From positions 1 through 37,285 of the forward strand of contig NW_021835929.1 in the NCBI RefSeq assembly GCF_006345805.1: a stretch of DNA of 37,285 nt, in the 5' to 3' direction. How positions within the stretch are numbered: the first letter of the stretch is position 1; each line of letters opens with the position of its first letter. The translations under genes and the position numbers were made by a program. The DNA comes from Octopus sinensis (taxonomy: Eukaryota). The notes below the pieces were generated by a model that saw only the letters and a program-made list of their open reading frames with translations, made no database searches and was not told the origin of the DNA. Shown in pieces: positions 8,017 through 28,800 of the stretch.

Positions 8017-8198
8017 TAGATAGATATATAGGTAGATAGATAGATACATAGATAGTGAGAGAGTGAGAGAGATGGATAGAGAGATAGATAGAGAAAGAGA
8101 GAAAGAGATATAGATAGATGGATAGAGATAGATAGATAATTAGGTGGATGGATAGATGGATAGAGAGCGATGGATATATATATATGATAGATAGATAT
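8017..8198. repeat. Degenerate (GATA)n/(GA)n tract flanking the 3' end of retrotransposon copy 1
   Basis: Directly visible GATA repeats up to the element end. Confidence 0.85.
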
Positions 8199-8199
8199 G

Positions 8200-10822
8200 T
8201 TTCTTTATTAGCCACACAGGGCTGCACACAGATAGAACAAATACAAGGTAGAGCTTTTCTTTTGAAGGTATTAAAAAAAAAAAAAAAAAAAAAAAAAAAA
8301 AAAAAAGGAAGGGGAGGTTCGATCAAAAGGGATCGTAAAAGGAGAGAGAAGGGACAAAAAAGGGGGGTTAAAAAAAAAAAAAAAAAACAAAAAAAAAAAA
8401 AAAAAAAAAGGGGGGGGAGAGGAAAAAAAATGATCAATAGGGATCGTTATCACAAGAATGTCAATATGAAGTGTAAAGGGGAGGACAGGTGAGGTTACCC
8501 GTGGAAAGAAAAGCCTGCGGAAAAGACCACGGTAACCTCGGTCAATGAAGTCACTTTTATTTTCTATTTTTTTTTTTTTTTTTTTTTTTTGCAAATAAGC
8601 AACTCTCTGTTTTCGATTTCTGGGTTCATAGGACTATGCTCAAGGTGGCTTCGTTCATTCATACGTGCCATTCTTGCTACATTCACCCTCTTTTTTAAAA
8701 CATTCGCTAGACAAAACTTGCCTCTCTACTCTCACTTTCCTTTTCAAGTGGTACTTGAAGAAGTTGATGAGAGATTGGCAGAGAGGAAGTGTTTTTGTCT
8801 CCAATCCTTTCAGACGCGTCCACCAGATACATTCTTTCGCCATAGCCACAAGGATGATGAAAATAGCTCTTCCTTCCCGTTTGAAGGAAGGAGGCGTGAC
8901 AATATTGACGATAGACTCAGCTGATAAACCGACTCGTCCCACACGTGACAGCAGTTGTTCGACATAAGCCCACAGGTCGGAAATTGTTGGACACTGAACG
9001 AGTGCGTGCAGAACGGTTTCGTCGCTCTGACCGCATCTCGGGCAGGTCGGCCCGTGTTTCTCGAGCCGTGTCTGTAGAGCTTATCCCGAACGGGTAGCGC
9101 TTCTCGGTAGCACGGCCAGGCCAGGGATCTCTGGAAGTTGTCCATGGGCCCTGGCCCGAAAGTCGTCCCGAACAGGCGGGTCAGGTACTCCTCGTCGACG
9201 TCCAGGTTCGCCCCGAGCTCGTCGTCGTACCTCCCCTCCCTAACACCCCTATAGAATGCTTTGGTTGTGTTGAAGTCACTTAAGGTCGACCCAGGACGGC
9301 AGAGTTGCTTGAGAGCAACGCGACACTCGCGGTGCCATTCGCCCTTCCTCGGCCTCTTTTTGATCCACGACTGCAGTTCGGTCATGGAGACGAGCTGCGG
9401 GAAAGCGTGCCTCACAAACGGCGACACACCTGTTCACCGTCGTCTACATAGAGCCAGAGATGTCGCAGTCTCAGCGCGTGTCTGCGCATCATCAACCACG
9501 GCATGCCCAGCCCTCCTTTTAACGGGTGTTGACAGCAAATGGATCGCCTGACCATCGGGACGCATCCTTTCCACAAGAGCGAAAGAGGATGCGTTGTAGT
9601 TTGGTGATGGTAGTGGTCGGGACAAGGTACGACGGTCAGGCGGTAGTAGGAGACGGACGCGATGTACGTGTTCGCCACCTCCGCTCGGACCTTTAGGGGA
9701 CAGTTCCTCTCGGCCCATTGCCGGGCGAGAGTGACCACCCTACTCGTTATCTCGTTCCAGTTCTTCTCCACTTGGAGGTCCGGACCAAACCAGACCCCGA
9801 GCAAACAACGGGCGTCGGTCCAGCGTCCCACGACGGAGGCGCTGGTGGACGGCATGGGCTTGCTTCTCCAGGTGCCTAGTCGCAAGCCCACTGACTTTTC
9901 CCGGTTGATTTCGCTCCTGTCACCGCTTCGTAGTTTTTCAGTGTCTCGCCGACCAGCTCGATGTGCTCGTGGCTAGACACTATGACGGTGACGTCGTCCG
10001 CGTATGCAGACACGCTCGTCCCGCATCCCAATTCTCGCGGATGCCCCTTAGAGTCGCCAGCTTCCGCAGTAGTGGCTCAAGAGTCAATACGTATAGAAGC
10101 GCCGAGAGGGGGCATCCCTGACGGACCGAACGTGCAATGTCGAAAGGTCTCGATAGATGTCCATTTACGCGAATTACCGATCGGATGCCTCTGTACAAGG
10201 CAGCTATCCAGCCGCGGAAGACGGGACCGAAACCAGCCGCTCTCAGGACTGCCTCCAAGTATCGATGGTCTACCCTATCAAAGGCTTTTGATTGATCCAA
10301 GTTGATCAGGGCCCCACCCATGCCAGGTTCGTTAACTACCCTGTCTATGATGTAGCGCATCAGATGGAGGTTGTCATGGATGGTCCGGCCTGGCACGGCG
10401 CATGTTTGCGCCTTGTCGACCAGTTTCTCGATGACAAGCGCCAACCTCTTGGCTAGCACCTTGGCCAAAATTTTCAAGTCTGCATTAAGCAGAGTGATGG
10501 CCCTAAAGTTATCTATTACATTTCCTTGTTTAGATCTTTCTTCAGCAGTGTTACGGCTCCTCGGCTCACAAAACCAGGAATGCTCCCGTTTTGCTGCCAG
10601 TTGCAGTACACCGCCGCCAAGAGATCTCCAAACAAGTCTGGCATACAATTGTAAAGCTCGTAGGGTAGACCATCCAAACCCGGTGATTTGTCCCTCGAGC
10701 ATTCTGCCATCGCTTCCCGCACTTCCGCCGCCGTGATGGCACCTTCGCAGCACCCTGCCTTTCTTGTCGAGAGTCGTGGTAGGCTATGTAGGTAGGCACT
10801 GAAGTCCACCCTACGTTCTTGA
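8200..10822 (-). mobile_element. 5'-truncated non-LTR retrotransposon, L1/Tx1-type (ORF2 reverse transcriptase + C-terminal CCHC region + 3' UTR), frameshifted; copy 1
   Basis: RT motifs KSPGLDGLPYELY, NFRAITLLNADLKILAKVLAKRL, LINLDQSKAFDRVDH, SVRQGCPLSALLY and YADD (9993-10004). PLKGGLGMP and LPVRDKL are typical of Tx1/L1 ORF2. ORF stop is near 8626; the element ends in AATAAAGAAA. Broken into several ORF pieces. Confidence 0.93.
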
Positions 10823-26968: not shown

Positions 26969-28691
26969 GTCATAGTGTCAAGCCACGAGCAGAACGAGCT
27001 GGTCGGCGAGACACTGAAAGACTACGAAGCGGTGACAAGAGCAAAAATCAACCGGGAAAAGTCAGTGGGCTTGCGGCTCGGCACCTGGAGAAGCAGGCCC
27101 ATGCCGTCCACCAGTACCTCCGTCGTGGGACGCTGGACCGACGGCCCGGTTGAGTTGCTCGGGGTCTGGTTCGGTCCGGACCTCCAAATGGAGAAGAACT
27201 GGAACGAGATAACGAGTAGGGTGGTCACTCTCGCCCGGCAATGGGCCGAGAGGAAACTGTCCCTAAAAGGTCGGGCGGAGGTGGCGAACACGTACATCAC
27301 GTCCATCATCTACTACCGCCTGACCGTCGTACCTTGTCCCGACCCTACCATCACCAAACTAGAACGCATTCTCTTCAGCTTCTTGTGGAAAGGATGCGTC
27401 CCGATGGTCAGGCGATCCATTTGCTGTCAACACCCGTTAAAAGGAGGGCTGGGCATGCCATGGTTGATGATGCGCAGACACGCGCTGAGACTGCGACATC
27501 TCCGGCTCTATGTAGACGATGGTGAACAGGTGTGGTCGCCGTTTGTGAGGCACGCGTTCCCGCAGCTCGTCTCCATGACCGAACTGCAGTCGTGGATCAA
27601 AAAGAGGCCGAGGAAGGGCGAATGGCATCGCGAGTGTCGCGTTGCTCTCAAGCAACTCTGCCGTCCCGGGTCGACTTTGAGTGACTTCAACACAACCAAA
27701 GCATTCTATAGGGGATTAGTGGAGGGGAGGTACGACGACGATCTTGGGGCAAACCTGGGCGTCGACGAGGAATACCTGACCCGCCTGTTTCAAACGACTT
27801 TCGGCCCGGGATCTATGGACAACTTCCAGAGATCCCTGGCCTGGCGGTGCTACCGAGAAGCGCTACCCGTTCGGGATAAGCTCTATAGGCATGGCTCGAG
27901 AAACACGGGGCCGACCTGCCCCAGATGCGGGCAGAGCGACGAAACAGCTCTGCACGCAATCGTGCAGTGTCCAACAATCTCCGACCTGTGGGCTTATGTC
28001 GAACGACTGCTGTCACGTGTGGGACGTATCGGTTTATAAGCCGAGTCTATCGTTAATATCGTTACGCCTCCTTCCTTCAAACGGGAAGGAAGAGCTATTT
28101 TTATCATCCTTGTGGCTATGGCGAAAGAATGTATCTGGTGGACGCGCCTGAAAGGATTAGAGACAAACACTTTCCCCTCTGGTCAATATCTCATCAACTT
28201 CTTCACTTGAGAGTAGAGAGGCAAGTTTTGTCTAGTGAATGTTTTAAAAAAAGATGGGTGAATGTAGCAAGGATGGCACGTATGAATGACGAAGCCACCT
28301 TGACTATGATTCTATGAACCGTAAAAATTAATACAGAGAGTTGCTTATTTGCAAAAAAAAAAAAGAAATATAACTTGTGACTTCATTGACCGAGGTTACC
28401 GTGGTCTTTTCCGTAGGCTTTTCTTTCCACGGGTAAACCTCACCTGTTCTCTCCCCTTTACACTTCATATTGACATTTCTGGATAGACGATCCCTATTGA
28501 TTCATTTTTTTCTTTCCCTCCCTCTCCCTCCCCCCTTTAAAAAATTTTTTATCCCCCCCCTTTTTGTCCTCGTTCTTTCCTTTTACGATCCCTTTTGATC
28601 GAGAACCAACCCCCTATTTTTACCCCCAAAGAAAAGCTCTACCTTGTAATTTGTCCTGACTGTGTGCAGCCCTGTGTGGCTAATAAAGAAA
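26969..28691 (+). mobile_element. 5'-truncated L1/Tx1-type non-LTR retrotransposon, copy 2 (post-YADD RT, CCHC knuckle, 3' UTR)
   Basis: Starts three bases after the YADD-V codons of copy 1. Open frame includes INREKS, LLGVWFG, PLKGGLGMP and CPRCGQSDETALHAIVQC. Premature TAA at 28037-28039 where copy 1 has TCA; natural stop at 28315-28317. Ends AATAAAGAAA, followed by (TCTA)n. Confidence 0.93.
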
Positions 28692-28800
28692 TCTATCTAT
28701 CTATCTATCTATCTATCTATCTATCTATCTACCGACCTACTTAACTACTTGTCTGTCTGTCAGCCTGTCTGTCTGGCAGTCTGTCTGTCTATTTATCAAT
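28692..28800. repeat. (TCTA)n then ACCT/GTCT repeats flanking the 3' end of copy 2
   Basis: Directly visible. Confidence 0.9.

What the first reader, a model, noticed from the sequence alone, without database searches (positions are those of the whole stretch)
8017..28800. Candidate (GATA)n/(TATC)n microsatellite-targeting Tx1-type retrotransposon family
Seen: two closely related copies with different 5' truncation points (10822 vs 26969), so they are probably independent insertions. All four junctions abut GATA-type repeat, and in both copies the element's sense strand is flanked by (TATC)n. Both end at AATAAAGAAA with no poly(A). Known: Tx1-clade elements include sequence-specific families such as Kibi and Koshi on TC/TTC microsatellites and Keno on U2 snRNA. 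Inference: this family's endonuclease or priming targets GATA tetranucleotide repeats with strand specificity. I do not know of a described GATA-specific family in cephalopods, but cannot check. A (TATC)n tail alone would explain only the 3' flanks, not the 5' flanks.
Basis: partly seen in the sequence, partly recalled or inferred. Interest (0 to 1): 0.85.

Follow-up and report, generated by a model that had tools for sequence, protein, structure and literature searches.

The report
Octopod LINE copies inside GATA microsatellites
Two separately inserted, broken copies of an abundant LINE-type jumping gene, likely from an octopus, each sit inside a (TATC)n repeat in the same orientation, so the family likely aims at this repeat, a known strategy with an apparently unreported target, though only these two sites could be read.

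Summary
Copy A (8200-10821, minus) and copy B (26969-28691, plus) are 5'-truncated L1-group LINEs, 87% identical, both ending AATAAAGAAA without poly(A), with (TATC)n on the sense strand at all four junctions. Their differences fall mostly on third codon positions (17/11/49), so they come from two different source lineages, not from a duplication. A 1,148-aa database protein (APE endonuclease, RT, zinc finger) is the family's whole ORF2. The family is very abundant in runs of four organisms, and the closest named proteins are from Argonauta. Two random insertions would share a repeat motif and orientation with a chance of about 1 in 700. But only two insertions could be read: no host genome is held, and the read data showed no junctions. 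The sister lineage (40-45% identical) is not in TATC (0 of 62 ends); it forms head-to-tail arrays and carries a short piece of 3' flank along, which suggests a mechanism. Tx1 membership is plausible but untested against named references. Verdict: likely a microsatellite-targeting family of the Kibi/Koshi kind, with a target and host that I did not find reported.

The parts
8200..10821 (-). Copy A: 5'-truncated non-LTR retrotransposon. Begins at about residue 414 of the 1,148-aa ORF2, so it has the RT, thumb and zinc finger but no endonuclease and no ORF1. Broken by several frameshifts.
   Evidence: RVT_1 E 2e-20; six frame pieces, 68-91% identical to P0425
26969..28691 (+). Copy B: 5'-truncated copy beginning at about residue 693 of ORF2, just after the YADD motif. 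One premature stop (28037-28039) and a 19-nt deletion near 28176.
   Evidence: zf-RVT E 3e-8; 83% identical to P0425
28318..28691 (+). 3' UTR of copy B, about 374 nt, ending AATAAA (28682-28687) plus GAAA, no poly(A)
8200..8629 (-). 3' UTR of copy A, with long T and A runs, ending AATAAA (8209-8204) plus GAAA; boundary with the ORF approximate
10822..11176 (-). 5' flank of A: (TATC)n array on the element's sense strand, perfect at the junction, degenerate further out
8017..8199 (-). 3' flank of A: degenerate (TATC)n array
26673..26968 (+). 5' flank of B: compound (CTAT)n-(CTAC)n-(CTAT)n array, perfect at the junction
28692..28790 (+). 3' flank of B: 10 perfect TATC-type units followed by CTAC/CTGT repeats, as on the far side of the 5' flank
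12550..12644 (+). The only GATA-type array in the window without an element: an empty site of the same motif

Best explanation
These are two independent, 5'-truncated copies of an abundant APE-type LINE that sit inside (TATC)n microsatellites in one orientation, and the family likely inserts there by preference through target-primed reverse transcription. Shown: the copies, their flanks, their independent origin, and a whole ORF2 with endonuclease, RT and zinc finger in a close relative. Inferred steps: (1) the endonuclease nicks the (AGAT)n strand, most simply at a T/A step as human L1 does; the junction allows this register but is ambiguous by one base. (2) The RNA ends a short way past AATAAA and so carries a few repeat units read through from its own flank. 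(3) These pair with the nicked strand and prime copying without the poly(A), which fixes strand and orientation. (4) Copying stops early and the 5' end joins within the same array; any target-site duplication is hidden in the repeat. Each new copy would again have the repeat downstream, so the target would be passed on.
For: Flanks in the same orientation at both copies; chance about 1.4e-3 for any shared motif class and orientation. Independent origin: 17/11/49 differences at codon positions 1/2/3, p 9e-8. B lies inside one compound array with the same CTAC/CTGT partners on both sides, as expected for a split older array. P0425 is 91% identical to A's RT core and 83% to B, groups with A at 99/99, and keeps endonuclease motifs matching L1's. 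Its beta-hairpin loop differs from that of the array-forming sister lineage; this loop affects nicking preference in L1-EN loop grafts (PMC1950540, passages). In the sister lineage every 3' end found is AATAAA plus a 12-20 nt spacer without poly(A). One spacer type is shared by arrays on five contigs, and 5'-truncated copies start right after it, which fits RNA-borne flank and site-directed re-insertion. Precedents: Kibi, Koshi and the crocodilian (TTCC)n/(TTTC)n Tx1 families (PMC4494074, passages); RNA-target pairing in SART1 and R1Bm (PMC7265360, passages).
Against: Only two insertions were read. No host genome. The read tool listed 24 of 3,441 loose-end rows: none shows TATC, none is at the 3' end, and all look like diverged element sequence. 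No protein among the close relatives fetched carries a translated TATC run joined to element sequence. The sister lineage is not in TATC (0 of 62). A's 3' flank is degenerate and starts two bases off the repeat. A loop graft alone did not transfer Tx1L specificity (PMC1950540), so a different loop does not show a TATC preference. The sister arrays come from one record set and are not independent.
Confidence: 0.62

Rival explanations
1. Loose preference: the family favours flexible, TA-containing simple repeats in general (AT, ACAT, ATCT), or only a minority subfamily is TATC-bound, and the window happens to hold two TATC cases.
For: The window is rich in such repeats (AT 2.9%, ACAT 1.1%, AGAT 1.5%). 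A's 3' junction begins with an ACAT-like unit and has an AT run within 30 nt. L1-EN reads DNA structure more than sequence (PMC1950540, passages).
Against: Both 5' junctions lie on perfect TATC runs of 11 and 23 units, in the same orientation, and the two copies come from different source lineages.
Confidence: 0.2
2. A (TATC)n tail made by RT slippage explains the 3' flanks, and the 5' flanks are chance, or reflect passive retention in repeat-rich DNA as proposed for Waldo-A/B.
For: Microsatellite tails are common in LINEs (PMC6007223, passages); passive accumulation is described for Waldo-A/B (PMC3812793, passages). The window was picked out of very many.
Against: It needs both 5' ends to land on TATC in the matching orientation by chance (2.9% or less each). 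The sister lineage has no microsatellite tail. B's two flanks look like halves of one compound array.
Confidence: 0.12
3. One copy is a duplicate or deletion derivative of the other, or the arrangement is an assembly artefact joined through GATA repeats.
For: Assemblers can mis-join at long microsatellites, and A carries many small indels and long homopolymer runs.
Against: The third-position excess shows divergence under selection between source lineages. Similarity stops about 40 nt into the 3' repeat. The 5' ends differ by about 835 nt.
Confidence: 0.04

Closest known systems
Kibi and Koshi (Tx1 clade, teleost fish; Kojima and Fujiwara 2004, not seen, as cited in PMC4494074 and PMC3812793)
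   Same: APE-type LINE with the same microsatellite at both ends of its copies.
   Different: Targets are (TC)n and (TTC)n, pure pyrimidine strands, in fish; here (TATC)n in a likely octopod. Relationship by descent not tested.
Crocodilian Tx1 families inserting into (TTCC)n or (TTTC)n (PMC4494074, passages)
   Same: Tetranucleotide microsatellite target; APE-type element.
   Different: Different motif and host; established there on many copies, here on two.
Waldo and Mino (ACAY and AC repeats) and Dong (TAA repeats) (PMC3812793, passages)
   Same: Microsatellite targeting by non-LTR elements; a Dong element is known from a snail.
   Different: Other clades (R1 and R4, clade labels recalled) and other motifs.
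L1-Tx1 families in the Octopus vulgaris repeat annotation (PMC13282606: 80 families, 56.3 Mb, 13 recently active)
   Same: Likely includes this family or close relatives (inference; the library was not seen).
   Different: The word 'target' does not occur in that paper's text or supplement, so no insertion preference is described.
R1Bm and SART1 priming by RNA-target pairing (PMC7265360, passages)
   Same: Proposed pairing of the RNA 3' end with the nicked target strand.
   Different: Shown experimentally there, for rDNA and telomere targets; only inferred here.

Membership tests
L1 group non-LTR retrotransposon | ORF2 with N-terminal APE endonuclease, RT and C-terminal zinc finger | tested here: met
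   P0425: Exo_endo_phos, RVT_1 and zf-RVT all above cut-off. Window copies hold RVT_1 and zf-RVT. Best solved match is human L1 ORF2p, E 4e-113, against 5e-36 for R2.
L1 group non-LTR retrotransposon | 5' truncation with a fixed 3' end | tested here: met
   Two different 5' ends and one shared 3' end.
Tx1 clade | RT groups with Xenopus Tx1L, Keno, Kibi and Koshi | tested here: inconclusive
   No named Tx1 reference came up. Of 10 outgroup clusters looked up, only a Ciona pol-like protein and fish hypothetical proteins carry names. The lineage is a supported clade (100/95) with an unresolved base.
Tx1 clade | Type I ORF1 with a CCHC knuckle rather than Transposase_22 (PMC5203782) | tested here: inconclusive
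   No ORF1 in the window. ORF1 of 3 of 3 sister-lineage copies has a zf-CCHC match, one above and two below cut-off, and no Transposase_22.
Tx1 clade | 3' end without a poly(A) tail (recalled as typical, from no call) | tested here: met
   2 of 2 window copies and 62 of 62 sister ends lack poly(A) after AATAAA.
Microsatellite-specific LINE (Kibi/Koshi kind) | The same repeat in more than 20% of flanks across the family (PMC4494074) | tested here: inconclusive
   2 of 2 copies in the window; no genome; read data uninformative.
Microsatellite-specific LINE (Kibi/Koshi kind) | Repeat at both ends in fixed orientation, also for truncated copies | tested here: met
   Both copies; n = 2.
Microsatellite-specific LINE (Kibi/Koshi kind) | Endonuclease nicks the target sequence-specifically | not testable with these tools
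   Needs a nicking assay.
Kibi or Koshi proper | (TC)n or (TTC)n target | tested here: not met
   Flanks are (TATC)n.

The most novel reading that the evidence does not exclude
This lineage passes on its target through its own RNA. The transcript ends 12-20 nt past AATAAA, carries that flank, and primes on any nicked DNA that matches it. Sister families then fall into head-to-tail arrays, each with its own spacer, while this family captured TATC once and thereby gained a genome-wide, strand-specific microsatellite target. That would show how a LINE can switch targets without first changing its endonuclease.
Probability: 0.25. Interest if true: 0.7.

Novelty: new member of a known kind. Interest (0 to 1): 0.4.

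Why it matters
If confirmed, it adds a new target motif and a mollusc host to the short list of microsatellite-targeting APE-type LINEs, in a family with thousands of matching contigs per run. It would tie a large share of octopod LINE insertions to GATA arrays, which matters for repeat annotation, marker design and claims about where octopus transposons land. The contrast with the array-forming sister lineage gives a natural pair for testing whether the endonuclease or the RNA 3' end chooses the target.

Tried and rejected
No host genome is held. Sequencing runs: no RNA holder listed. Laying four runs on copy B gave 43,607, 29,071, 12,084 and 9,190 contigs but no readable junction. DNA patterns from the 3' end and UTR found 0 matches in genome, metagenome and viral contigs. 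Protein-based scans found no close relative with flanks, and plasmids and phages gave no match. A protein search that included the translated TATC run returned 75 hits. I read 16 proteins and 12 cluster members: none joins a TATC run to element sequence, and the six TATC-rich ones read are unrelated. Gene callers usually start inside the element, so this is a weak test. No Rfam match in the window or six loci, so no spliced-leader or snRNA target was seen for the sister arrays. A two-hairpin structure before AATAAA is stable in 8 of 10 sister ends (z below -2.5) but not in the window copies (z +0.6 and +1.3), so I do not claim it for them. RT template-jumping onto a second RNA tail was considered for the 5' TATC and rejected, since no element sequence lies upstream of either array. 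Six short element motifs searched in full texts found 0 papers. The Atlas gave no clade name. Earlier scan notes held nothing on this sequence or genome.

Full report
Observation. The window holds two copies of one element: A at 10821-8200 (minus) and B at 26969-28691 (plus), 86.9% identical over 1,807 columns, with no third copy. Both end AATAAAGAAA with no poly(A). On the element's sense strand all four flanks are TATC-type repeat. The arrays are perfect at both 5' junctions (11 and 23 units) and at B's 3' junction (10 units). A's 3' flank starts two bases off and is degenerate. One further GATA-type array, at 12550-12644, has no element.

Chance. GATA-type arrays cover 2.9% of the non-element DNA if the four flanking arrays are counted and 0.3% if not. 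Two random insertions would share any one motif class and orientation with p about 1.4e-3, and GATA in particular with p about 4e-4. These are two events, not four, and the figures are post hoc for one window chosen among very many.

Independence. Over about 400 codons the copies differ at 17, 11 and 49 sites at codon positions 1, 2 and 3 (p 9e-8). They therefore descend from two source lineages that diverged under selection, and neither is a decayed duplicate of the other. Similarity ends about 40 nt into the 3' repeat.

What the element is. A holds RVT_1 and B holds zf-RVT. A database protein of 1,148 aa, P0425, is 91% identical to A's RT core and 83% to B, and has APE endonuclease, RT and zinc finger above Pfam cut-offs. 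On it, A starts at about residue 414 and B at about 693, so neither keeps the endonuclease or ORF1. The best solved match is human L1 ORF2p (E 4e-113; R2 5e-36). The closest named proteins are from Argonauta hians (58-70% identical), and an Octopus bimaculoides gene model begins with a fragment 85% identical to B. I infer an octopod host; no call names it. Twenty runs in ten studies and four organism labels hold the sequence, and 9,190 to 43,607 contigs per run were laid on B, consistent with a very abundant family; this is no copy number. In a tree of 33 RT cores chosen by hand from the hits, A groups with P0425 (99/99) in a seven-row clade with the Argonauta proteins (98/98), which joins a ten-row sister clade (100/95); the base is unresolved (the same shape with 169 rows). 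No named Tx1, Kibi, Koshi or Keno sequence came up, so clade membership is open. A CCHC-type ORF1 in 3 of 3 sister copies and the lack of poly(A) fit Tx1 (PMC5203782).

The test that mattered could not be run. No host genome is held. The read tool showed 24 of 3,441 loose-end rows, kept by support. None shows TATC, none lies at the 3' end, and all read as diverged element sequence. Single-copy junctions would not rank in such a list and human-like repeats may be filtered, so this is no evidence either way. Pattern and protein scans of the contig collections found no close relative with flanks. None of the close-relative proteins that I read joins a translated TATC run to element sequence, a weak negative.

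The sister lineage. A genome record titled as a bacterial MAG holds animal-like DNA with 69 matches on 17 contigs, in head-to-tail arrays of mostly whole elements spaced about 6.4-6.8 kb apart, 31-50% identical to B. Of 62 distinct 3' ends, none is followed by a TATC array. By inspection, 58 join another copy and 4 run into unique DNA. Five outer 5' edges are also in non-TATC DNA. This counts against TATC targeting as a trait of the wider lineage, and the ends come from one record set. It also gives a clue. Each end is AATAAA plus a 12-20 nt spacer. One spacer type is shared by arrays on five contigs and stands at an outer 3' edge whose 5' edge lacks it, so it likely travelled with the element. 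In another array the spacer matches the host DNA just before the first copy, like a target-site duplication. 5'-truncated copies begin directly after a spacer. The simplest reading is that the RNA ends shortly after AATAAA, carries the flank, and inserts where that flank is matched.

Mechanism. I commit to target-primed insertion into existing (TATC)n arrays (0.62): a nick on the (AGAT)n strand, priming by read-through repeat units in the RNA, early termination, and a 5' join in the same array. All four steps are inferred. The endonuclease hairpin loop differs between P0425 and the sister families. Loop grafts change L1-EN nicking but did not transfer Tx1L specificity, and that paper also names RNA-DNA pairing as a possible added factor (PMC1950540). 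Pairing of the RNA end with the target is proposed for SART1 and R1Bm (PMC7265360). Rivals: a loose preference for TA-containing repeats (0.2), a tail plus chance (0.12), and duplication or artefact (0.04).

Comparison with what is known. Kibi (TC)n, Koshi (TTC)n and crocodilian (TTCC)n/(TTTC)n Tx1 families are the direct precedents (PMC4494074), with Waldo, Mino and Dong in other clades (PMC3812793). The O. vulgaris annotation lists 80 L1-Tx1 families (56.3 Mb; 13 recently active) with no target analysis (PMC13282606). Ten literature searches listed no GATA-targeting LINE and no microsatellite-targeting Tx1 in a cephalopod. The library lacks most subscription papers, and Repbase and Dfam could not be searched. 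Figure 3 and the supplements of PMC4494074, which list further targets, could not be seen and may bear on novelty.

What I saw of each paper: passages of PMC4494074, PMC3812793, PMC8967140, PMC8869645, PMC10088271, PMC1950540, PMC7265360, PMC6007223, PMC5203782 and PMC4640811; part 1 of 3, passages and a supplement search of PMC13282606; nothing of Kojima and Fujiwara 2004, which is cited through others.

Verdict. It works like Kibi and Koshi; it is not one of them, and Tx1 membership is untested. New member of a known kind, interest 0.4.

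Noticed in passing
L001-L037, L039-L054 (handle G001, 17 contigs): A record titled as an uncultured Arenicella MAG holds microsatellite-rich, animal-like DNA with long head-to-tail arrays of whole ORF1+ORF2 LINEs; some arrays mix subfamilies with different ORF1 starts. This is contamination of a prokaryote reference, and a tandem-forming LINE lineage worth study in itself.
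   Followed up: partly
L008, L012, L015, L021, L026, L029, L031, L034, last 46 nt to AATAAA: Two adjacent predicted hairpins directly before AATAAA, kept with different sequences across subfamilies (z -2.6 to -4.2 in 8 of 10 ends); a possible RT recognition signal.
   Followed up: partly
P0016, P0352, P0063: Element fragments in database annotation: the first 43 residues of an Octopus bimaculoides RhoGEF10-like model come from this family, and related proteins are filed under Herbaspirillum and Gammaproteobacteria MAGs.
   Followed up: no
window 15913-16769: 857-nt element with long inverted repeats (about 205 nt, 81-88% complementary). The internal frames resemble a broken mariner transposase by recall, but Pfam gave no match.
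   Followed up: partly
window 11400-15500: About 4 kb of AT-rich DNA with a recurring 8-nt motif (10 of the window's 11 exact copies); likely an old degenerate satellite.
   Followed up: no
window 13290-13470, 15540-15760, 17000-17350: SINE-like repeats with tRNA-like heads by eye, resembling octopus SINEs by recall; 13366-13423 matches 15542-15597. No tRNA gene or Rfam match.
   Followed up: no
window 6333-6685, 23310-23794, 29965-30189, 36164-36595; and 7101-7294, 24047-24350, 31744-31962: Two further dispersed repeat families, 66-79% alike within each.
   Followed up: no
window 34767-36113: 1.3-kb GC-rich (GCC)-based array with a 15-nt period, giving long open frames on both strands; likely non-coding.
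   Followed up: no
window 8273-8590 (copy A 3' UTR): Homopolymer runs of 34-40 nt where copy B has 5-12; either expansion or assembly error.
   Followed up: no
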